From contig JAPDLS010000001.1 of NCBI GenBank assembly GCA_025920425.1, forward strand, positions 92,288 through 156,287: a DNA stretch of 64,000 nucleotides, written 5' to 3'. This DNA is from Candidatus Haiyanarchaeum thermophilum. Lineage in GTDB: Archaea > Nanobdellota > Nanobdellia > JAPDLS01 > Haiyanarchaeaceae. Under the pieces are notes generated by a model. The model was not told the DNA's origin, did no database searches, and saw only the letters and a list, made by a program, of their open reading frames with translations. Each line of letters starts with the position of its first letter. The stretch's first letter is position 1. A program made the translations under genes and the position numbers. Shown one piece after another: positions 16,322 through 58,453 of the stretch.

Positions 16322-17764
16322 TTAACCTTTGACCACACCCAGTGGTACTAGCCTAGCCACCAATTTCCCAATTCCAGCCCTATCACTTACAATGGCCACC
16401 TCATCTATATCTTTATATGCCCCTGGGGCCTCTTCTGCCACGATCTCCCAAGAAGCAGCCCTCACCAATATTCCCTTCCTTTCCAATTCTTGAGCAATTT
16501 CCTTCCCCCTGAACTTCTTTATTGCAGCATTCCTACTCATTTCCCTTCCAGCACCATGAGCAGTGGAATAAAAAGTTTTCCTTGCCTCAGGATTTCCAAC
16601 TAGAACATAACTTGCTGTGCCCATACAACCCGGAATTAGCACTGGTTGACCGGTTCTCCTATATTTTTGAGGCAAATCCTCACTTCCTGGGGGAAAGGCT
16701 CTAGTGGCTCCCTTCCTGTGCACGAATACTTTAACTTTCTCACCATTTACTTCATGATCTTCAATTTTCGCTATGTTATGTGCCACATCGTAGACTACTT
16801 GCAACCCCAAGGCATCCGGTTCCTTTTCAAATACTTGTTTGAAGCTTTCCCTTGTCCAATGCAAAATCATCTGCCTATTGCACCAAGCATAATTAGCTGC
16901 CGCACACATTGCAGCGAAGTAATTTTCAGCTATTTCACTTTTGGAAGGAGCATAAACCAGCTCTCTGTCAGGAAGCTTAGCTATCACTTCATGATATTTC
17001 CTCTCCATCTCTCTCAAGTAATCAGAACATACTTGATGCCCTAAGCCCCTCGAGCCTGTATGGATCATTATCATCACTTGTCCCTCTTCCTCTATTCCAA
17101 ATACTTTAGCTACTTCCCTATTGTAGATTTTGTCCACCTTTTGAACTTCTAGGAAATGATTTCCAGCCCCCAAGCTTCCAAGCTGGGGTAAACCTCTACT
17201 CTTAGCGGTGCTAGATACCTTTGATGGATCTGCTTGAGACATCCCTCCATTTTCCTCAAGATGCTCGAGATCCTCCTTCCAACCAAATCCATGCTCCACA
17301 GCCCACTTAGCTCCGAGCTGGAGCACTTGATCTAGTTCAGTGGAAGATACTCTTATCTTCCCACCCTTCCCCACACCAGATGGTATATTCCTAAAGATGA
17401 TCTCAAGCAATTCCCTAAGCCTAGGGCGGACATCTTCTTCTCTTAAATTACTTCTCACTAGGCGGACTCCACAGTTGATATCATACCCTATTCCTCCTGG
17501 GCTAATACAACCTTCCTCATAATCTATAGCTGCTACCCCTCCAATGGGAAAGCCATAGCCCTCATGACCGTCAGGTAAAGTAATGGAGTATTTGTAGATT
17601 CCAGGCAAACATGCAACTCCAGCAGCCTGAATCAAAGTCCTATCCTGCTTCATTTTCTCCAGAAGCTTAGGACTAGCTATGATGAGGGCTGGTACTCTCA
17701 TTCCCGGAATACTCCCTTTAGGAATTTCCCACTCTATGTCGCTTATTTTCTTGAGCTCAACCAT
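16322..17764 (-). CDS. rtcB: RNA-splicing ligase RtcB (3'-phosphate/5'-hydroxyl ligase), no intein
   Basis: Conserved RtcB blocks GYDINCGVR, GAGNHFLEV, HTGSRGLG, STAHGAGR in a 480-aa protein. Confidence 0.9.
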   Translation of the reverse strand: MVELKKISDIEWEIPKGSIPGMRVPALIIASPKLLEKMKQDRTLIQAAGVACLPGIYKYSITLPDGHEGYGFPIGGVAAIDYEEGCISPGGIGYDINCGVRLVRSNLREEDVRPRLRELLEIIFRNIPSGVGKGGKIRVSSTELDQVLQLGAKWAVEHGFGWKEDLEHLEENGGMSQADPSKVSSTAKSRGLPQLGSLGAGNHFLEVQKVDKIYNREVAKVFGIEEEGQVMIMIHTGSRGLGHQVCSDYLREMERKYHEVIAKLPDRELVYAPSKSEIAENYFAAMCAAANYAWCNRQMILHWTRESFKQVFEKEPDALGLQVVYDVAHNIAKIEDHEVNGEKVKVFVHRKGATRAFPPGSEDLPQKYRRTGQPVLIPGCMGTASYVLVGNPEARKTFYSTAHGAGREMSRNAAIKKFRGKEIAQELERKGILVRAASWEIVAEEAPGAYKDIDEVAIVSDRAGIGKLVARLVPLGVVKG

Positions 17765-18273: not shown

Positions 18274-19134
18274 ATGGTATGGATTCAGAGGTTTGATCCA
18301 TGGAGGAGTACCTTATGTACCTGTCCTTTCAAATACTCACTTAATATCTATACAGGATGTGCTCATGCATGCATCTATTGTTATATTACTTCTTATATAA
18401 GAGATGGATTCAAACCGAGGCCGAAGAGGGGATTGATAGGCGAATTGGAAAGGGAACTTCAGCGCTTTCATGCTAGAAGAAAAGTGGTAAGCATTTCCAA
18501 TAGCTCAGACCCTTATCAACCTATAGAAAAGAAACTAGAGCTAACTCGAAAGTGCTTGGAGCTTTTCAAGCGATTCGGATGGAAAATACTAATCGTTACG
18601 AAGAGCAATTTGATAACAAGAGACCTAGATCTCTTAAAGGAAGATTGTGTAGTGAGTGTTACAATCACTACCCTGGATTCAAAGCTGGCTCACATACTTG
18701 AGCCCAATGCTCCATCACCTTCCCTTAGAATAGATGCTATAAAATTGCTTAAACTCTACCATATCCCCGTATGTGTAAGAATAGATCCCCTAATTCCCTT
18801 CATCAATGATGATTGGGAAAAGCTTGAGAAATTAGTTAAGATTCTAGCAAAGCTAAAAGTGGACCATGTGATTTCTTCTACCTACAAAGCAAGAGGAGAC
18901 AGCCTAGCTAGATTAAGCCTGAACTTTCCTGAGAGATACATTAAATTATTGAAGCTCTACTTGATGGGTGAAAGAATCTCCAATTATTATTATCTCCCTA
19001 GGGATCTGAGATATAGACTAATGAGTAGGCTTAAGCAGCTCTGTGAGGAATATGGTCTAAGCTTTGCCTCCTGCAGAGAAGGCTTTAGGGAGCTCAACGA
19101 TAATATATGTGACGGGAGCTTTCTCCTCTCATAG
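18274..19134 (+). CDS. radical SAM protein, spore-photoproduct-lyase-like family (COG1533)
   Basis: CxxxCxxC cluster inside SLNIYTGCAHACIYCY, the characteristic N-terminal signature of this family. Confidence 0.65.
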   Translation: MVWIQRFDPWRSTLCTCPFKYSLNIYTGCAHACIYCYITSYIRDGFKPRPKRGLIGELERELQRFHARRKVVSISNSSDPYQPIEKKLELTRKCLELFKRFGWKILIVTKSNLITRDLDLLKEDCVVSVTITTLDSKLAHILEPNAPSPSLRIDAIKLLKLYHIPVCVRIDPLIPFINDDWEKLEKLVKILAKLKVDHVISSTYKARGDSLARLSLNFPERYIKLLKLYLMGERISNYYYLPRDLRYRLMSRLKQLCEEYGLSFASCREGFRELNDNICDGSFLLS

Positions 19135-19699
19135 ATTTTTTATCCAAAAAATTGTGAACTATAGTAATGCATTGACTGGAGAAGTAGGGTAGTGGGCCCA
19201 ACGAGATAGTATCTTTACAAAATCGCTTTGCAATTTTCTTCTCCCTCCTCGGGAGTCCTAGATGGTCTCCCAAGATGAATACAGGATCTTCCCCAATTTC
19301 CACATCATCTATCAATTTTCCCCTTTCATCCAACAAATAAATGTTTCTTCCACCATGCTCCTCAACTACTTCCTTAAAACCCTTCTTCTCTATATAGATT
19401 CCTGGAAATGCTAAGACCTTTCTTCCCTTCTTATATTTCCAGAGAACATATCTGAGGAGATCTCCTACATCCTTCTTTGAAATCGGCATTTCCTCATGGC
19501 TTATGAACTCAATATGTTTTGGAGGATCGGGGGGGCCGTTGAGGATGATATGAAGATTTACATCCATTCGCATCGCGTTCGAGATGAAAAAGGCGGCGAT
19601 GATGCTATGGCAGACTATGTCCAGCCTTCCTGCCTCCATTAGGCTCTTGAAATTTCCACTTGTCCTGCCATGTTCTGAGAAAAGGATAAATTCTCTCAT
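19094..19699 (-). CDS. trmY: tRNA (pseudouridine54-N1)-methyltransferase TrmY (SPOUT, DUF358)
   Basis: Strong resemblance to the TrmY core (GRLDIVCHSIIAAFFISNAMRMDVNLHIILNGPPDPP). Confidence 0.7.
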   Translation of the reverse strand: MREFILFSEHGRTSGNFKSLMEAGRLDIVCHSIIAAFFISNAMRMDVNLHIILNGPPDPPKHIEFISHEEMPISKKDVGDLLRYVLWKYKKGRKVLAFPGIYIEKKGFKEVVEEHGGRNIYLLDERGKLIDDVEIGEDPVFILGDHLGLPRREKKIAKRFCKDTISLGPLPYFSSQCITIVHNFLDKKSMRGESSRHIYYR

Positions 19700-32099: not shown

Positions 32100-34301
32100 T
32101 TACTCCTCAATAATCCCCTTTCTCTTTCTAATCTGTTTAATGATTTCTTCTTCTAGGGAAGTGGGGAGTTTCTCAAATCTAGAGTCAACTAGAAACCATG
32201 CCCCCCTTCCTTCAGTAGTGCTCCTCAGCTCATCTGTGAATCCAAACATTTCAGCTACAGGCAGGTCGCAGATGAGAATACCTCTTCCATCTTCCTCTTT
32301 TACCTCTAGTAGTTGTCCCCTTCTACTCTGGATGATCTTTATTACTTTCCCACTGTACTCGGGAGGAAGATCTATCCTGATCCTCTGGATAGGCTCCATT
32401 AGGATCGGTTTGGCTTGGAGGATAGCATCCCTAATGGCACTCTTCACAGCAGGAATTACCTGAGCAGGTCCCCTATGAATTGAATCCTCATGGAGTACAC
32501 AATGGACTAGTTTAACTTTGATTCCGAAACACTTTTCATGTGCGAGGGGGCCCCTCTTCATAGCATCCTCGAAAGCAGTCAAACACATTTCCATCACTTC
32601 ACCTATATGCACTACTCCTCTAGTTTCATCGATGAATATATTTCTTTCATAGATGTGCTTTACCCTTTTAGCTTCTTCCCTATCCATTCCAGCTTCAACC
32701 AATTTGCTCCAAAGTTCCTCAGTTTTTCGCTTGATTTTTCCTTCAGGTATATCTCCCCGTACGATGGCTTCATAAACCCCTTTTTCCAGAGGTTCAACCA
32801 CTATATAGAACTTGTTATGTTTATTTGGGGATTTACCCTCTACCACAGGGCTTTTATCGGTAACGCTTTCTCTATATACCACTATGGGGTTAGACTTGGT
32901 TATGGGAATTCCTCGCTCCACACTTATTTTATATTCGACTATTTCTAGGTGAAGTTCTCCTAGCCCAGAGACAAGGTTTTCTCCTGTCTCTGGATTAATC
33001 TCTACCTTGATAGTAGGATCTTCTTTTGCAATGTCATTGAGGGCTTCGATGAGCTTAGGGAGATCCCCTGGTCTTGTGGGTTCAATGGCCTTAGTTACTA
33101 CTGGCTCAAAGATATGCTTGATCTCCTCAAATGGGGTTACAGGTTCTCTGCTCACAGTTTCTCCAGCATTTATTCCCTTCAGCCCGATCAATCCACATAT
33201 GTTTCCAGCATATACTTCATCGATAGGGTAACGATGAGCACCTCTCCATACTAATATCTGTTGAACTTTCTGCACGCTCTTGGCTGAGTTAAGATATACT
33301 TCCTCGCCCCGTGTCAACTTCCCAGCGAAGAGACGTCCTACAGCAATTTCTCCAGCTTGGGGATCGACGATAATCTTAGACACGCAGAAAATTGGTTTGA
33401 AGTTATGGTCACATGCTAGCAGAGCTTTTCCCACATCTGAATCTAGATCTCCACTCCAGATCCTTGGAATCCTGTACTTTTGAGCTTCGACAGGACTTGG
33501 TAGATGCTTTATTATCATTTCTAGCAAAATTTTGTGGAGAGGAGCTTTCTTCGCAAATTCCTCAATCTTCCCCTCTCTATACGCCTGGATTACATCCTTA
33601 AAGGAGAGGTTAGTTTTTTGCATGTAAGGATAACTTAGCGCCCATTTTTCCAGAGCAGAACCAAAGGCTACTGTACCTTCATTTACCCTTAACTGCCATT
33701 TCTCTTTAAATGGGGAGGGGGCGAGGGCAGCTATTAGTTCGTTGACATTCATTATTACCTTGATGAACCTCTCCTGAATTTTCTCAGGAGGTAATTTTAG
33801 TTCGTTGATTAATCTATCTACTTTATTCAAAAAGAGCACAGGTTTTACCCCTTCTTTAAGAGATTGCCTCAACACCGTCTCGGTTTGAGGCATTACTCCT
33901 TCCACAGCATCGATGACGAGGAGAGCACCATCTATAATCCTAACAGCCCTAGTTACATGCCCCCCAAAATCTACATGTCCTGGAGTATCTACTAAGTTTA
34001 TTAAATATTCTTCCCCATCTATCTCAAAAACAATATTGGCATCCGCACTCTTAATCGTCATCTGCCTCTCTTGCTCGATCTTTACATAGTCCAATGCTAA
34101 CTTTTTTCCAGCTACTTCCCAAGAGAGCATGCCAGCTCCAGCTAAAAGGGAGTCGCACGTAGTGGTCTCGATGGGTTCTAAACTTGAAGTTTAGAACTTT
34201 CCATGATCTACGTGCGCGATAGTTCCTATGTTTCTAATCCTCTCCTTTTCCTTCATCAATCTGTTTATCTTTTGAATGAGCTCCTCCTCCTTTGTTCCCA
34301 T
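32100..34301 (-). CDS. fusA: translation elongation factor 2 (aEF-2) in two exons, 34301..34199 and 34168..32100, separated by a 30-nt bulge-helix-bulge intron
   Basis: Exon 1 encodes [35 protein letters not shown]; exon 2 continues [12 protein letters not shown]...DTPGHVDF; between them lie 30 nt with an in-frame TAA that fold as a BHB motif; joined product is 723 aa. Confidence 0.85.
34169..34198 (-). other. predicted archaeal BHB intron inside the EF-2 P-loop coding region
   Basis: Transcript-sense 5'-AGUUCUAAACUUCAAGUUUAGAACCCAUCG-3'; central helix AUGG/CCAU, 3-nt bulges AAA and CGA, 10-bp inner helix with UCA loop; cutting after the 2nd nt of each bulge restores the frame. Confidence 0.75.
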
Positions 34302-41532: not shown

Positions 41533-43022
41533 GAGATTCGCCTCAATCCGATTTTTTCCAGCATCCTTTCTAACTTCTCATCAGAGATACTTGGCTCAGT
41601 TGAGACTTCGCACATTAGAGCTAAGTGTTTCCTCAGTCCTACGTTAATCCCTTCTGGAGTATGAGCAGGGCAGATTCTTCCATAATGTGTGGGATGAACA
41701 TCCCTAGCCTCGAAGTTTTCCTTTCCACTCGTGAGCAGAGATACAACTCTTCTCAATTGGGAGACGAGAATGTATTGATTCAACCGGTTAAGGGCTTGAC
41801 AGATCCCAGTCCTCTCCCCAACCCATTCCCCAGTTGCCATAGCACTTCGTATCCTACTAGTCAGTTGCTGAGCTCTTACTACAGTTTCAACCGATGGAAT
41901 TTTTCCTCTCCTTATGATCCTTTCCAAACTATACTTGATATCACTTACAAATACCCTAAACACGACTCTAAAAAGAGATTCCATCAGATCTCCACATAGC
42001 CTCAATCTCTTATTGGCATAGTGATCCTTATCATCCTCACTCAAACGATTTGTAGCTACCATGAGCAATTTCTTAATGGCCCTTCCCAAATAATATGCCT
42101 TGAATATCCTATCCTTCCTCTCAGATCCAAGGTGTGGAAGAAAGAACTTATCTAACATTTCAATACTTCTCTGGATCTTTACTGACTTTTCTTGAGTAAT
42201 TCCTATCTTCCTTCCAATGAATTCCAAAGCATCTTCCCTTGATCTAATATCAGCAGTGTGGTAAAGATTAAGATAGATCTCATTGAAGAATTCTTCCCCT
42301 CCACATAACTCTAGGATTTCCTTATCCTTCGTCACTCCGAGTGCTTTCATTATGATTGGGAAAGGTATCCTATGAACCCTAGCAAAGCTTACGAAGATAA
42401 TTCCATCTTTTCTCCTTTCTATCTCATGCACTACTGCCTGTCTAGCTTCTGAGAATATCTTGGCCACATAGGGAAATGGTCCATCCTTCCTCTCCACGAA
42501 GGGCTTATTCGGGGCCAGATCTTCTACAGTTACGATTAATCTTTCAGTACCATTGATGATAAAGTACCCTCCAGGATCATCTGGATCCTCTCCTAAGCTG
42601 ATAAGTTCCTCTCTACTTTTTCCGTATAAGTGGCAGTACTTGGATTTGAGGAGAATAGGGATAGATCCTATATACACGTGTCTGTTGGTCTCAAGCTCCA
42701 CATCATCTTTGATGAGGGTCATTTCCATGAAGAGAGGAGCTTCGTAAGTGAGATCTCTAAGTCTAGCTTCCATTGGATAAATAACTCTTTTAGTCCCATC
42801 AGCTTCTATAATTGAGGGAGGCTCCACATATACTCTGCCGAATTTTATCTTAAGGCTTTCACACCCTGGAGGAAGAATATCAGAAGCTACTTCCCCTATC
42901 TCATCCACCACTCTCTGAATTCCAAACTCCATGAACTTATTGAAAGATTCAATGTTATGACTAACCAGGCCTCTACTTTTGAAGTAAGCATCCAACAATA
43001 CTTTTTGGACGTGCTTATTCAA
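41529..43022 (-). CDS. rpoB2: DNA-directed RNA polymerase subunit B'' (N-terminal part of a split B subunit)
   Basis: 497-aa N-terminal homolog; its stop overlaps the rpoB' start by 4 nt. Confidence 0.9.
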
Positions 43023-43278
43023 CTATCACCACCCTATAATATTTAGTTTCTCCAGCGGTAGGGGAACTACGAGTAATTTCTATCACATCTCCAGGCTTAG
43101 CCCCAAGCTTCCGTACGACAGGATCCGTGATTAGAATCCTCGGGAGATCTGCGAGTTTGGCATTATATTTGGTTAGCAACTCTCTCTTCTCCTCCTCGCT
43201 AATGATCCTATGTCTAGGTACGAGTCTGTGGGTAAAGATGTCAAATTCTTCTTTATCTCTCTCCTCTATCATCTTCAT
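43015..43278 (-). CDS. rpoH: DNA-directed RNA polymerase subunit H (Rpb5-like)
   Basis: About 85-aa Rpb5-like sequence ([10 protein letters not shown]...[12 protein letters not shown]); the ORF-track N-terminus runs into tRNA-Lys, so the true start is MKM at 43278 or MIE at 43272. Confidence 0.8.
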
Positions 43279-43400
43279 GGGCCGTGCGGGATTCGAACCC
43301 GCGACCACTGGGTCTCTTCATCCTCAGGTTCAGAGCTTTTATCTTGGGATAAAAGCCCAGTGCTCTTGGTAAGCTTTCTACCAGGCTGAGCTAACGGCCC
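43278..43400 (-). tRNA. tRNA-Lys (anticodon UUU) with two predicted introns: about 11-13 nt in the D-loop and about 36 nt at canonical position 37/38
   Basis: Removing both insertions gives a standard 73-nt tRNA-Lys (acceptor GGGCCGT, D stem GCTC/GAGC, anticodon stem CTGGG/CCCAG with loop CTTTTAA); canonical intron has a CUUU/GAAG central helix. Confidence 0.7.
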
Positions 43401-43539
43401 GAGATCAGAAGATATTCTGTCATCATTAAAGGGGGAAATACTCATAGCATTTTGTATGATAATAGAATATTTTTTAAATTTTACGGTAGCTAGATTCGTG
43501 AAAATCATTTTAAATGTGGTGAGTTATGATTTTTTTATA

Positions 43540-44507: not shown

Positions 44508-45521
44508 ATGGAGAAGATAAGGATAAGTGGGAGAGTCTTGGAAAAGCTAAAGAAGGCACATTATGGAGTCTTCGGTCACTCGGCTGTGGAGATATGCCTA
44601 TGGAATAAGAAGGCGATAAGGGGAGAGGGAGTATGTTATAAGCGCAAATTCTTTGGAATAGAAACACATAGGTGTATGCAGTTCTCTCCAGCAGCTGCCT
44701 ATTGTGAGAATAGATGCATCTATTGTTGGAGGTTTTCAGAGTTCTATAGAATTTTGAATATGCCTGAGGAAGCTGTAGATGATCCGCAAGAGATAATTGA
44801 GAATTTAATGAGAGAAAGGAGAAGATTACTCTCAGGGTTTTTTGGAAATGTGAAGGCAAATAAGGAGCTTTTGAAGGAGGCAATGATTCCCAGCCACTTT
44901 GCTATTTCCCTTATAGGAGAGCCTACACTTTATCCCAAGCTTCCAAAGATGATCAAGTATTTGAAGTCCCTTCCCCATACGAGATCTGTTTTCTTGGTTA
45001 CCAATGGGCAGGAGCCACAAATGCTTAAGAGACTCGAAGCTGAGAGAGCCCTACCTACTCAACTTTATCTCTCTTTAAATGCTGGCTCAATGGAGAAGTT
45101 TAGAGAGATTAATAGACCCTTGCTTCCCGATGCATGGGAGAGATTCTGGGAAAGCTTGGAGTTCCTGAGAAAAAATGAAGTGAGAAGCGTGATTAGGGTT
45201 ACACTTATTAAAAGTCTTAATACTAATGAGGAAGAGCTTGAGAAGATGTGTGAATTGATAAAGGTAGCAAATCCCAACTTCGTGGAAGTGAAGTCTTACA
45301 TGCATTTGGGCTATTCCACCCGGAGACTCAGTAAGACTAACATGCTTACTCAACTTGAGTTGAAAAAATGCATAAATAAAATGTTAAAGCATCTTCGGTT
45401 TTTCAAATACATGGATGAACAGGAGGAATCTAGAGTCATAATCCTTCAGAACGTTGAAAGATTTGTGGAACGGTGGATTCTTAGACCTGAAGAGTCAACT
45501 CTCCATAAATTCAACTTATAA
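44508..45521 (+). CDS. taw1: tRNA 4-demethylwyosine synthase Taw1/TYW1 (radical SAM)
   Basis: GIETHRCMQ...CENRCIYCWR radical SAM region and the SLIGEPTLYP block typical of TYW1 homologs. Confidence 0.75.
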   Translation: MEKIRISGRVLEKLKKAHYGVFGHSAVEICLWNKKAIRGEGVCYKRKFFGIETHRCMQFSPAAAYCENRCIYCWRFSEFYRILNMPEEAVDDPQEIIENLMRERRRLLSGFFGNVKANKELLKEAMIPSHFAISLIGEPTLYPKLPKMIKYLKSLPHTRSVFLVTNGQEPQMLKRLEAERALPTQLYLSLNAGSMEKFREINRPLLPDAWERFWESLEFLRKNEVRSVIRVTLIKSLNTNEEELEKMCELIKVANPNFVEVKSYMHLGYSTRRLSKTNMLTQLELKKCINKMLKHLRFFKYMDEQEESRVIILQNVERFVERWILRPEESTLHKFNL

Positions 45522-45684: not shown

Positions 45685-45804
45685 TCCTGCGGGCCGGATT
45701 TGAACCGGCGATCTTCCGGTAACCGCTGAGTTTTGGTCATCGATACCAATACAGTTACTCCCAACTCTACAGCCGGACGCGTTACCGGGCTACGCTACCG
45801 CAGG
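45685..45804 (-). tRNA. tRNA-Tyr (anticodon GUA) with a canonical-position intron of about 45 nt
   Basis: C1:G72 acceptor pair, D stem GCGT/ACGC, anticodon stem TCCGG/CCGGA with loop CTGTAGA after removing the insertion, T arm GCCGG-TTCAAAT-CCGGC, discriminator A. Confidence 0.8.
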
Positions 45805-50089: not shown

Positions 50090-50177
50090 TGGACCGGCCG
50101 GGACTCGAACCCGGAGCCTTCTCCACTTCCGAGTACCCTCTGCGAAGGAGACGCTCTACCAGTTGAGCTACCGGCCC
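50090..50177 (-). tRNA. tRNA-Ala (anticodon CGC) with a 15-nt intron at position 37/38
   Basis: G3:U70 wobble pair in the acceptor stem, anticodon stem TCTCC/GGAGA, intron with UUCG/CGGA central helix, T arm CCGGG-TTCGAGT-CCCGG. Confidence 0.8.
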
Positions 50178-58354: not shown

Positions 58355-58453
58355 TGGGCCCGGTGGGATTTGAACCCACGACCTACGGTTCTCTTAGATG
58401 TGCGGAACTCGGTCTTATAAGACCGTCGCTCCACCAGGCTAAGCTACGGGCCC
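58355..58453 (-). tRNA. tRNA-Ile with predicted anticodon UAU and a 25-nt intron at position 37/38
   Basis: Acceptor GGGCCCG/CGGGCCC, discriminator A, anticodon stem ACGGT/ACCGT, 5-nt variable loop; intron has a perfect CUUA/UAAG central helix with 3-nt bulges, leaving loop CUUAUAA. Confidence 0.7.

What the first reader, a model, noticed from the sequence alone, without database searches (positions are those of the whole stretch)
43278..43400. tRNA-Lys(UUU) carrying two introns, one at a non-canonical D-loop position
The locus is 123 nt but yields a standard 73-nt tRNA-Lys only if two segments are removed: roughly 11-13 nt inside the D-loop (containing AAGCUUACCAA, closed by a UGGUA/UACCA helix) and about 36 nt at position 37/38 (central helix CUUU/GAAG). 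Multiple and non-canonical tRNA introns imply a splicing endonuclease with relaxed specificity, the same activity needed for the fusA intron.
Basis: partly seen in the sequence, partly recalled or inferred. Interest (0 to 1): 0.55.

Follow-up and report, generated by a model that had tools for sequence, protein, structure and literature searches.

The report
Two-intron lysine tRNA gene, DPANN archaeon
This is a real lysine tRNA gene in a hot-spring nano-archaeon, interrupted by two short introns, one at the usual site and one in the D-arm; standard tRNA finders miss it, but this kind of interrupted archaeal tRNA gene is already well known.

Summary
On the minus strand, 43400..43278 is a 123-nt pre-tRNA-Lys(UUU). 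Removing 13 nt from the D-arm and 36 nt at position 37/38 gives a 74-nt tRNA with every invariant nucleotide, and ARAGORN then calls it tRNA-Lys. Default ARAGORN and the Rfam tRNA model both miss the unspliced gene.

The gene sits directly upstream of rpoH. That position is shared by at least 42 of 80 archaeal genomes sampled. Two relatives have exons identical at 74 of 74 positions, while both inserts differ: the D-arm insert is 13 nt versus 29 nt (41% identity) and the anticodon insert is 36 nt versus 41 nt (68% identity). The helices next to the splice sites stay paired through U-A to U.G changes. More distant relatives have no intron, one intron at 30/31, or D-loop introns at 15/16 or 19/20.

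Both Lys introns form relaxed bulge-helix-bulge motifs. The ligase RtcB is encoded in the window. The endonuclease was not found there.

The organism is Ca. Haiyanarchaeum thermophilum, a DPANN archaeon related to Parvarchaeales. D-arm introns and multi-intron tRNAs are documented in Thermoproteales and in DPANN, so this is a new member of a known kind. Interest is modest.

The parts
43278..43400 (-). Complete pre-tRNA-Lys(UUU) gene, 123 nt, with no encoded CCA
   Evidence: Sequence. ARAGORN -i finds the same boundaries. The spliced product is called tRNA-Lys(ttt), 74 nt.
43378..43400 (-). Exon 1: tRNA positions 1-22 (acceptor 5' strand, U8, A9, D-stem 5' strand, D-loop AGCCUGGUA, G22)
   Evidence: Identical in L003 and L106.
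43365..43377 (-). D-arm intron, 13 nt (AAAGCUUACCAAG), cut at 22/23. Because AGA repeats at both junctions, cuts from 21/22 to 23/24 give the same product. The alternative is an 11-nt intron at 43366-43376.
   Evidence: H helix U17aGGU20/ACCA lies 2 nt from both cuts. The orthologue insert is 29 nt in L003, and the 13-nt insert in L106 carries 3 substitutions, with the helix kept as U-A or U.G. Relatives without a D-loop intron have a 9-nt D-loop.
43350..43364 (-). Exon 2: tRNA positions 23-37, with anticodon UUU at 43351-43353
43314..43349 (-). Canonical 36-nt intron at 37/38, of relaxed hBH type: H = C32UUU35/GAAG, h = the anticodon stem, and no adjacent h'
   Evidence: The orthologue intron is 41 nt and 68% identical in L003, and has 3 substitutions in L106. 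H pairs are kept in all three sequences.
43278..43313 (-). Exon 3: tRNA positions 38-73 (anticodon stem 3' strand, variable loop, T-arm, acceptor 3' strand, discriminator A73)
   Evidence: The same 29-nt 3' end occurs in intronless tRNA-Lys(UUU) genes from metagenomes.
43333..43343 (-). Conserved block GAUAAAAGCUC inside the anticodon intron. It is antisense to G31-A37 plus the first 2 intron nucleotides, and this pairing competes with the BHB fold.
   Evidence: Invariant in the window, L106 and L003 although the rest of the intron diverges. The alternative fold is -51.8 kcal/mol, against an MFE of -53.3, and it is the MFE itself in L003. Chance level is only p about 0.01-0.02.
43401..43453 (-). 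5' leader of about 53 nt carrying C/D-box-like motifs (AUGAUGA, 11 nt, CUGA at 43405-43426) and ending at the tRNA 5' end
   Evidence: Weak Rfam sR9 hit, 18.7 bits against a gathering score of 36. The boxes and the 5' AAAAUGCUAUG are conserved in L003 and L106. Its function is inferred only.
43465..43481 (-). TATA-like element (AAAUUUAAAAAAUAUUC) about 25 nt upstream of the leader start
   Evidence: Read directly from the sequence. A similar AAGUUUAAAAA sits at the same place in L003. N. equitans box A is TTTAAA at -27 (PMC3491384). Inferred promoter.
43015..43278 (-). rpoH, whose first ATG overlaps the tRNA discriminator A73 by one base (second ATG at 43270-43272). It heads the rpoH-rpoB''-rpoB'-rpoA operon.
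   Evidence: Co-transcription is inferred.
16322..17764 (-). RtcB tRNA-splicing ligase gene, the trans-acting machinery that would join the three exons
   Evidence: Pfam PF01139, E = 2.2e-175, full length.

Best explanation
This is the functional tRNA-Lys(UUU) gene of Ca. Haiyanarchaeum thermophilum, sitting at an ancient position directly upstream of rpoH.

Inferred pathway:
1. The primary transcript probably starts about 53 nt upstream at a TATA-like promoter and may run on into the RNA polymerase operon.
2. RNase P and RNase Z trim the ends, and CCA is added, because it is not encoded.
3. The archaeal splicing endonuclease (EndA) removes two introns.

The first intron is 36 nt at the canonical 37/38 site. 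Nucleotides 32-35 (CUUU) pair with GAAG near the intron's 3' end to form the 4-bp central helix. The cut sites lie in the flanking UA|U and AG|A bulges, and the anticodon stem is the outer helix.

The second intron is 13 nt in the D-arm, most likely cut at 22/23. U17a-G18-G19-U20 pair with ACCA at the intron's 3' end. The 5' cut falls in the hairpin loop and the 3' cut in an AG|A bulge, making a bulge-helix-loop type substrate.

RtcB, encoded in the window, ligates the three exons into a 74-nt tRNA with a normal 4-bp D-stem and a 9-nt D-loop.

Shown here: the gene anatomy, exon conservation against intron divergence, retention of the splice-site helices, and the presence of RtcB. Inferred: the transcription unit, the actual cleavage and the exact cut positions, and the type of endonuclease.
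For: 1. Removing 13 + 36 nt gives a sequence that ARAGORN calls tRNA-Lys(ttt), 74 nt. By direct reading of that sequence it has U8, A14, G15/C48, G18G19, A21, U33, A37, G53, U54U55C56, A58 and C61.

2. The spliced sequence aligns without gaps, at 86-90% identity, to seven intronless 74-nt tRNA-Lys(UUU) genes (six from the metagenome scan plus L104). Six share the same acceptor and T-arm, and all have a 9-nt D-loop.

3. The syntenic orthologue in a relative with 74% RpoB'' identity (L003-L005) has identical exons (74/74). Its D-arm insert is 29 nt rather than 13 (41% identity) and its anticodon intron is 41 nt rather than 36 (68% identity). For comparison, the leader is 62%, rpoH 64% and rpoB'' 71% identical at the nucleotide level.

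4. A closer relative (L106, RpoH 88% identical) has 0 substitutions in 74 exon positions, 3 in the 13-nt intron, 3 in the 36-nt intron and 4 in the 53-nt leader.

5. All 30 proposed pairs, including both splice-site helices, form in all 3 sequences (90/90 cells). Register-shifted controls give 33-48%. The only variable pairs are the two exon-intron pairs, which switch between U-A and U.G.

6. The same syntenic tRNA-Lys has other intron states in relatives. It has none in L104. It has one textbook hBHBh' intron at 30/31 in Ca. Jingweiarchaeum (L006, 136 nt; the L102 copy shows the same junction and 3' half but was read only in part), and an insert of about 27 nt read by eye at about 30/31 in L103. 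Woesearchaeota carry D-loop plus canonical pairs at 15/16 (L008) and 19/20 (L012).

7. RtcB is intact in the window. Four of the eight tRNA genes in the window, and fusA, carry BHB introns, so splicing is clearly active in this genome.

8. The literature documents D-arm positions 20/21 and 22/23, up to three introns per gene, and in vitro cleavage of a 13-nt BHL intron by a DPANN endonuclease (PMC4090602; PMC3239211; PMC12397907).
Against: - There is no RNA evidence. Splicing, aminoacylation and the exact cut sites are not shown.
- Neither Lys intron forms a strict 3-4-3 hBHBh' motif. The canonical one lacks an adjacent h'. The D-arm one has only a 1-2-bp outer helix, and that helix competes with the D-stem.
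- BHB-constrained folds are 7-14 kcal/mol above the MFE.
- No compensatory double changes are available, because the exons are invariant across only three sequences.
- No EndA domain was found in any window ORF of 90 aa or more that was scanned.
- ARMAN-4/5, which are related Parvarchaeales, were reported to have only strict canonical introns (PMC3239211).
Confidence: 0.9

Rival explanations
1. The gene is the same, but the D-arm intron is 11 nt (AAGCUUACCAA, 43366-43376) cut at 21/22. This uses the helix G18G19U20A/UACC and leaves a 76-nt tRNA with an 11-nt D-loop (AGCCUGGUAGA).
For: BHB geometry fits equally well or slightly better. H is 4/4 paired, the outer helix h is 2 bp (U17a-A23, C17-G24), and the 3' cut falls at the loop/D-stem junction in the window. 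In L003 the 7-bp inner hairpin abuts this H on the 3' strand. The constrained fold is -40.2 against -39.2 kcal/mol. ARAGORN also accepts the 76-nt product.
Against: All 11 relatives examined have 9-10-nt D-loops ending ..GGNA|GAGC (in L012, GGCUA|GAGC). The 74-nt product aligns to them without gaps, whereas the 76-nt product needs a 2-nt insertion.
Confidence: 0.15
2. The D-arm segment is not an intron. It is kept in the mature tRNA as an expanded D-loop with an extra hairpin, and only the 37/38 intron is spliced.
For: The D-arm motif is far from a strict BHB. In the unconstrained fold the segment is simply a stable hairpin.
Against: The segment varies from 13 to 29 nt, with 41% identity and its own unrelated 7-bp hairpin in L003, while the exons are 100% identical. 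It would bury G18 and G19, which must pair with the T-loop. Seven relatives lack any D-loop insert. The 4-bp helix keeps the 2-nt offset to both junctions in all three taxa.
Confidence: 0.04
3. The locus is a decaying tRNA pseudogene or an integration-site remnant, and a different gene supplies tRNA-Lys(UUU).
For: Standard finders reject it. Only 64 kb of the genome could be inspected, so a second copy cannot be excluded.
Against: There are 0 substitutions in 74 exon positions across three taxa whose neighbouring protein-coding DNA is 64-71% identical. All invariant tRNA positions are intact. It occupies the conserved tRNA-Lys(UUU) slot upstream of rpoH, seen in at least 42 of 80 archaeal genomes.
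Confidence: 0.02

Closest known systems
Multi-intron and non-canonical-intron tRNA genes of Thermoproteales and other Crenarchaeota (Sugahara et al. 2008/2009, as reviewed in PMC4090602)
   Same: They have up to three introns per gene, with positions including 20/21 and 22/23 in the D-arm alongside 37/38. The motifs are relaxed (HBh'/hBH) and are cut by EndA. Default tRNA finders miss them.
   Different: Those organisms are TACK archaea with (alpha-beta)2 EndA carrying the crenarchaeal loop. This one is a Parvarchaeales-related DPANN archaeon whose EndA type is unknown.
Disrupted tRNA genes of ARMAN-2 / Ca. Micrarchaeum (Fujishima et al. 2011, PMC3239211)
   Same: It is a DPANN organism. A 13-nt BHL (hBH) intron at a non-canonical site was shown to be cleaved in vitro. 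There is a two-intron tRNA-Pro, and a tRNA-Ile(UAU) with a 25-nt strict canonical intron, which is exactly what the window also has at 58355-58453.
   Different: The ARMAN-2 examples are in the T-loop (53/54, 59/60), not the D-arm. Its enzyme is the epsilon2 type. ARMAN-4/5, which are closer to this organism, were reported to have only strict canonical introns.
Position 30/31 disruption of tRNA-Lys: split tRNA-Lys(CUU) of Nanoarchaeum equitans and Staphylothermus (PMC4090602)
   Same: The syntenic tRNA-Lys(UUU) of the sister lineage Ca. Jingweiarchaeum (L006; the partly read L102 copy agrees) is interrupted at 30/31 by a perfect hBHBh' intron, and L103 carries an insert read by eye at about 30/31.
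   Different: Those are trans-spliced halves of the CUU isoacceptor. The window's gene is contiguous and is not interrupted at 30/31.
C/D-box guide RNA inside tRNA introns (tRNA-Trp of Haloferax and other Euryarchaeota; tRNA-Met intron of N. equitans, PMC3491384)
   Same: The 36-nt intron contains a conserved antisense stretch to the anticodon loop, followed by CUGA, 8 nt, then AUGAAGA. The fifth nucleotide upstream of CUGA would pair with U34, the same wobble position that is methylated in tRNA-Trp.
   Different: The intron has no terminal C and D boxes. The antisense match runs into the 'box'. The AUGA(A/G)GA element is explained by the BHB central helix. No Rfam C/D family hits the intron. 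It is not filed as a member of this family.

Membership tests
Archaeal elongator tRNA (tRNA-Lys, anticodon UUU) | Cloverleaf with a 7-bp acceptor stem, 4-bp D-stem, 5-bp anticodon stem and 5-bp T-stem, plus the invariant nucleotides, after removal of the inserts | tested here: met
   ARAGORN calls tRNA-Lys(ttt), 74 nt, on the spliced sequence. All stems pair in 3 of 3 taxa. U8, A14, G18G19, A21, U33, U54U55C56, A58 and C61 were read directly.
Archaeal elongator tRNA (tRNA-Lys, anticodon UUU) | Orthology to recognised tRNA-Lys(UUU) genes | tested here: met
   It is 86-90% identical, without gaps, to intronless tRNA-Lys(UUU) genes. It occupies the same slot upstream of rpoH as in at least 42 of 80 archaeal genomes.
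Archaeal elongator tRNA (tRNA-Lys, anticodon UUU) | Expression, processing and aminoacylation with lysine | not testable with these tools
   No RNA data are available. Purifying selection on the exons (0/74 changes) is indirect support only.
EndA-spliced BHB intron, canonical position 37/38 | An insert between nucleotides 37 and 38 whose removal restores a 7-nt anticodon loop | tested here: met
   Removing the 36 nt gives the loop CUUUUAA.
EndA-spliced BHB intron, canonical position 37/38 | A 4-bp central helix with both cuts 2 nt 3' of its strands, in 3-nt bulges, flanked by helices h and h' | tested here: inconclusive
   H is CUUU/GAAG, 4/4 paired, and h is 7 bp. But h' is 0 bp adjacent to H and exists only as 2 bp after a 2-nt offset, so the motif is a relaxed hBH. 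The H pairs are kept in 3 taxa.
EndA-spliced BHB intron, non-canonical (D-arm 22/23) | An insert relative to intronless orthologues that varies in length and sequence while the exons are constant | tested here: met
   The insert is 13, 13 (with 3 substitutions) and 29 nt in the three taxa, and absent in L104, L006, L103 and the metagenomic copies.
EndA-spliced BHB intron, non-canonical (D-arm 22/23) | A 4-bp helix joining the two junctions with the BHB 2-nt offset | tested here: met
   UGGU/ACCA in the window and UGGU/GCCA in L003 and L106. With the stated filters (4-bp H plus a normal spliced D-arm), the scan returns this 13-nt solution and its 1-bp-shifted 11-nt neighbour in the window, plus one further 7-nt-D-loop solution in L003.
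EndA-spliced BHB intron, non-canonical (D-arm 22/23) | Two 3-nt bulges with outer and inner helices (strict hBHBh') | tested here: not met
   h is 1-2 bp, and h' is absent in the window because the 5' site lies in a hairpin loop. The motif is therefore a BHL/relaxed type. Relaxed forms are accepted members of the family when a broad-specificity EndA is present (PMC3239211).
EndA-spliced BHB intron, non-canonical (D-arm 22/23) | The genome encodes a broad-specificity EndA ((alpha-beta)2, epsilon2, or alpha4 with the L3 loop) | not testable with these tools
   No EndA domain was found in the 58 window ORFs scanned. A tblastn with an M. jannaschii EndA sequence recalled from memory gave nothing below E = 3. 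The rest of the genome could not be reached.
EndA-spliced BHB intron, non-canonical (D-arm 22/23) | An RtcB-type ligase to join the exons | tested here: met
   RtcB at 16322-17764 (-), Pfam E = 2.2e-175.
Intron-encoded C/D-box guide RNA (tRNA-Trp type) | Terminal C (RUGAUGA) and D (CUGA) boxes plus internal C'/D' boxes | tested here: not met
   Only a CUGA/CAGA, 8 nt, AUGA(A/G)GA arrangement is present, with no terminal boxes (read). No C/D family hits the intron at E <= 10.
Intron-encoded C/D-box guide RNA (tRNA-Trp type) | A guide of 9 nt or more, complementary to a target and lying next to a D or D' box | tested here: inconclusive
   GAUAAAAGCU pairs with G30-U(i1), placing U34 at N+5 (manual reading; fold). 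However, the complementarity to exon 2 alone is 7 nt (p about 0.01-0.02), and in L003 it extends into the 'box'.

The most novel reading that the evidence does not exclude
The canonical intron may be more than a spacer. Its invariant GAUAAAAGCU(C) block base-pairs with the anticodon loop in a fold that excludes the spliceable BHB. It is followed by CUGA/CAGA, an 8-nt linker and AUGA(A/G)GA.

This could be a minimal intron-borne C'/D'-type guide that directs 2'-O-methylation of the wobble U34 of tRNA-Lys before or after excision, perhaps as a 36-nt circle. Alternatively it could be a conformational switch that holds back splicing.

Together with the C/D-like leader, the locus would then be a compact sRNA-tRNA-mRNA processing unit at the head of the RNA polymerase operon.
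Probability: 0.06. Interest if true: 0.6.

Novelty: new member of a known kind. Interest (0 to 1): 0.27.

Why it matters
The practical point is annotation. The gene that reads AAA codons in a 40% GC genome is invisible to default ARAGORN and to the Rfam tRNA model. Ca. Haiyanarchaeum and similar DPANN genomes may therefore look as if they lack tRNA-Lys. PMC5829648 explicitly notes incomplete tRNA sets in DPANN.

The evolutionary point is that one syntenic tRNA-Lys locus shows at least five intron states across DPANN: none, 30/31, 15/16 + 37/38, 19/20 + 37/38 and 22/23 + 37/38. That makes it a clean case for studying intron gain, loss and sliding.

The finding also predicts a broad-specificity EndA in the thermophilic relatives of Parvarchaeales, unlike what was reported for ARMAN-4/5. 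None of this changes what is known about how archaeal tRNA introns work.

Tried and rejected
- Default ARAGORN and Rfam at gathering threshold found nothing at the locus. Rfam at E <= 10 gave only a spurious tmRNA fragment and weak C/D hits in the leader.
- ARAGORN -i gave wrong models: Leu(gag) here and Ser(gga) in relatives. I rejected these as artefacts of forcing a single intron.
It was still useful for the rpoH synteny survey and for the two Woesearchaeota examples.
- The metagenome scan with the 3' exon found no close relatives with introns. It found intronless tRNA-Lys genes and some 3' halves without a nearby 5' half.
- My naive BHB enumerator is not specific on its own, because it lists many continuous helices. 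I used it only with extra constraints.
- K-loop idea: an apparent compensatory change (U-A against A-U) between the 'D' and 'C' boxes' of the window and L003 disappeared once the introns were aligned properly. L106 also breaks the proposed C66-G87 pair. I downgraded the idea.
- A tblastn with an M. jannaschii EndA sequence recalled from memory, plus Pfam scans of 58 window ORFs, found no endonuclease.
L105 proved identical to the window.
Full report
**1. Observation**

The minus strand of 43400..43278 reads GGGCCGUUAGCUCAGCCUGGUAGAAAGCUUACCAAGAGCACUGGGCUUUUAUCCCAAGAUAAAAGCUCUGAACCUGAGGAUGAAGAGACCCAGUGGUCGCGGGUUCGAAUCCCGCACGGCCCA. It has a 7-bp acceptor stem (GGGCCGU/ACGGCCC), a perfect T-arm (GCGGG-UUCGAAU-CCCGC), a D-stem (GCUC/GAGC) and an anticodon stem (CUGGG/CCCAG). 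The D-loop and the anticodon loop are both too long.

ARAGORN in default mode and the Rfam tRNA model at gathering threshold list seven tRNAs in the window but not this one. A simple T-arm scan finds eight, and this is the only one missed.

Removing 36 nt after A37 and 13 nt from the D-arm gives a 74-nt sequence that ARAGORN calls tRNA-Lys(ttt). By direct reading, the product carries U8, A14, G15/C48, G18G19, A21, U33, A37, G53, U54U55C56, A58 and C61. The precursor folds with a z-score of -4.15. The only corrections are 74 nt rather than 73, and a cut best placed at 22/23.

**2. Organism and context**

The neighbouring RpoB'' is 100% identical to proteins named Ca. Haiyanarchaeum thermophilum. 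This is a thermophilic DPANN lineage related to Parvarchaeales, from Tengchong hot springs. The describing paper does not mention introns at all (PMC10134863).

The tRNA lies immediately upstream of rpoH-rpoB''-rpoB'-rpoA. Its discriminator A73 is the A of the first rpoH ATG.

A tRNA-Lys(UUU) in this position, same strand and a few hundred nt before rpoB'', occurs in at least 42 of the 80 archaeal loci fetched. These include methanogens, Thermoplasmata, Archaeoglobi, Halobacteria and DPANN. The locus is therefore an old, conserved tRNA slot.

**3. Comparative test of the intron reading**

The nearest other species (L003-L005, RpoB'' 74% identical) has the syntenic gene with all three exons identical (74/74). 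Its D-arm insert is 29 nt instead of 13, only 41% identical, and contains its own 7-bp hairpin. Its anticodon intron is 41 nt instead of 36 and 68% identical. Over the same pair the leader is 62%, the rpoH region 64% and rpoB'' 71% identical at the nucleotide level.

A closer relative (L106, RpoH 88% identical) has no change in 74 exon positions. It has three changes in the 13-nt insert, three in the 36-nt intron and four in the leader.

On the three-way alignment, all 30 pairs of the proposed structure form in every sequence (90/90 cells). The structure comprises the cloverleaf stems, the helix between U17a-A21 and the 3' end of the D-arm insert, and the CUUU/GARG helix. Register-shifted controls give 33-48%. 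The only varying pairs are two exon-intron pairs that switch between U-A and U.G. No double compensatory changes exist, because the exons never vary.

More distant relatives show other states of the same gene:
- L104: no intron.
- Ca. Jingweiarchaeum (L006): a single 136-nt intron at 30/31 with a textbook hBHBh' (H = CAUC/GAUG, h' = 14 bp). The L102 copy shows the same junction sequence and 3' half, but only part of it was read.
- L103: an insert of about 27 nt, placed at about 30/31 by eye only.
- Two Woesearchaeota: a D-loop intron plus a canonical one. L008 has 52 nt at 15/16. L012 has 32 nt at 19/20.

This pattern of constant exons, free inserts, retained junction helices and presence/absence among orthologues is what introns show. 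It is not what pseudogenes or structural expansions show.

**4. Intron anatomy and boundaries**

*Canonical intron.* With the 5' cut after A37 and the 3' cut before A38, nucleotides 32-35 (CUUU) pair with GAAG. Both cuts lie two nucleotides 3' of that helix, in the UA|U and AG|A bulges. The anticodon stem extends the outer helix to 7 bp, but no inner helix abuts H (h' = 0). Two C-G pairs form only after a 2-nt offset. This is a relaxed hBH motif.

*D-arm intron.* Two solutions obey BHB geometry and restore a normal D-arm in both species.
- Solution (a): H = U17aGGU20/ACCA, cut at 22/23, a 13-nt intron (29 nt in L003), a 9-nt D-loop and a 74-nt tRNA.
- Solution (b): H = G18G19U20A/UACC, an 11-nt intron (27 nt in L003), an 11-nt D-loop and a 76-nt tRNA.

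An AGA repeat at both junctions makes 20/21 to 23/24 equivalent in the window. L003 narrows this to 21/22-23/24.

I favour (a), because all eleven relatives examined have 9-10-nt D-loops ending in GGNA|GAGC (in L012, GGCUA|GAGC). Only the 74-nt product aligns to them without gaps. In the window the 5' site lies in the 7-9-nt hairpin loop and the outer helix is 1-2 bp, so the motif is BHL-like. BHB-constrained folds cost 7-14 kcal/mol relative to the MFE, which is usual for non-canonical introns that compete with the cloverleaf.

*Other introns in the window.* Those of tRNA-Ile(UAU) (25 nt), tRNA-Ala(CGC) (15 nt) and fusA (30 nt) are strict hBHBh'. The tRNA-Tyr intron (46 nt) is hBH.

**5. Mechanism**

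*Shown:* the anatomy above, and an intact RtcB ligase gene at 16322-17764 (Pfam E = 2e-175).

*Inferred from established archaeal tRNA biology:*
- Transcription starts at a TATA-like element (43465-43481) about 25 nt before a conserved 53-nt leader.
- RNase P and RNase Z trim the ends.
- EndA cuts at the two motifs.
- RtcB joins the three exons.
- CCA is added, because it is not encoded.

No EndA domain was detected in the 58 window ORFs scanned, nor by tblastn with a recalled M. jannaschii EndA. The enzyme type therefore remains untested.

The literature links relaxed and non-canonical introns to (alpha-beta)2, epsilon2 or loop-bearing alpha4 enzymes. It reports that a DPANN epsilon2 enzyme cuts a 13-nt BHL intron in vitro (PMC3239211; PMC5829648). 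However, the fusA intron is a strict BHB and does not itself require relaxed specificity.

**6. Comparison with what is known**

Reviews list positions 20/21, 22/23, 25/26 and 30/31 among others, up to three introns per gene, and D-arm introns explicitly (PMC4090602; PMC3239211; PMC12397907). ARMAN-2 shows the same syndrome in DPANN, including a tRNA-Ile(UAU) with a 25-nt intron like the one in this window.

This is therefore a new member of a known kind. Two things are mildly new. First, the syndrome occurs in thermophilic relatives of Parvarchaeales, whereas ARMAN-4/5 were reported to have only strict canonical introns. Second, the intron positions turn over at one syntenic locus.

**7. Loose ends**

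The anticodon intron keeps an invariant GAUAAAAGCUC block that is antisense to the anticodon loop. That pairing excludes the BHB and is nearly as stable as the MFE in the window (-51.8 against -53.3 kcal/mol). In L003 it is the MFE itself.

The block is followed by CUGA/CAGA, 8 nt and AUGA(A/G)GA, and U34 would sit at the N+5 position of a C/D-type guide. [quoted passage not shown]

Several points argue against the idea:
- The terminal boxes are absent.
- The AUGARGA element is explained by the H helix once the introns are aligned.
- The apparent compensatory change vanished.
- The exon-only complementarity is 7 nt (p about 0.01-0.02).

I rate this reading at about 6%.

**8. Verdict**

The gene is real and almost certainly functional, and both inserts are introns (confidence about 0.9). 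The 13-nt/22-23 boundary is favoured over the 11-nt one by roughly 5 to 1. It is ordinary for intron-rich archaea, useful for annotation, and of modest interest (0.27).

Noticed in passing
window 34169-34198 (-), within fusA/EF-2 (exon 1 34199-34301, main ORF 32100-34130 extended upstream to 34168): A 30-nt insert (AGUUCUAAACUUCAAGUUUAGAACCCAUCG) with an in-frame stop splits the P-loop codons AHVDHGK|TTT of EF-2. It forms a strict hBHBh' motif: H = AUGG/CCAU, bulges AA|A and CG|A, and an inner helix that I read as 9 bp by hand and the script counted as 10 bp. Removing it restores ...[19 protein letters not shown]. The only archaeal protein-gene BHB introns cited in the papers I read are in cbf5 (PMC2738675, PMC12397907). 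The cbf5 gene here (1138-2136) is uninterrupted.
   Followed up: partly
window 43401-43453 (-): The tRNA leader carries AUGAUGA, 11 nt, then CUGA, ending 4 nt before the tRNA 5' end. It also has a 5' AAAAUGCUAUG that is conserved in L003 and L106, while the 'guide' between the boxes varies. It gives a weak Rfam sR9 hit (18.7 bits, gathering score 36). This could be a C/D-like sRNA co-transcribed with the tRNA, as in the N. equitans dicistronic precursors.
   Followed up: partly
window 43270-43278 (-): The tRNA discriminator A73 is the first base of the first rpoH ATG, and a second ATG lies 6 nt downstream. RNase Z cleavage would leave a nearly leaderless rpoH-rpoB-rpoA mRNA. A tRNA-Lys(UUU) just upstream of rpoH is seen in at least 42 of 80 archaeal genomes sampled.
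   Followed up: partly
window 58355-58453 (-), 50090-50177 (-), 45685-45804 (-): These are three further intron-containing tRNA genes. tRNA-Ile(UAU) has a 25-nt strict BHB intron, as in ARMAN-2. tRNA-Ala(CGC, G3:U70) has a 15-nt strict intron, though the table labelled it Arg(tcg). tRNA-Tyr(GUA) has a 46-nt hBH intron, though labelled it Ser(cga). In all, 4 of the 8 tRNA genes in the window are interrupted.
   Followed up: partly
L089, L091, L093, L094, L097-L099 (metagenome contigs): These are tRNA-Lys(UUU) 3' halves (anticodon loop to CCA) with an identical T-arm and acceptor strand, but no recognisable 5' half within 260 nt upstream. They could be very long introns, split tRNAs or attachment-site remnants.
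   Followed up: no
window 16322-17764 (-), 44508-45521 (+), 19094-19699 (-): Genes for tRNA-maturation enzymes lie in the window: RtcB ligase, a TYW1/Taw1-like radical-SAM wyosine enzyme, and a PF04013 RNA methyltransferase that I recall as TrmY-like.
   Followed up: no
L008 995-1157 and L012 about 2060-2195 (Woesearchaeota genomes): The syntenic tRNA-Lys(UUU) genes also carry two introns, one in the D-loop at 15/16 (52 nt) or 19/20 (32 nt) plus a canonical one. ARAGORN mis-called or missed them.
   Followed up: partly
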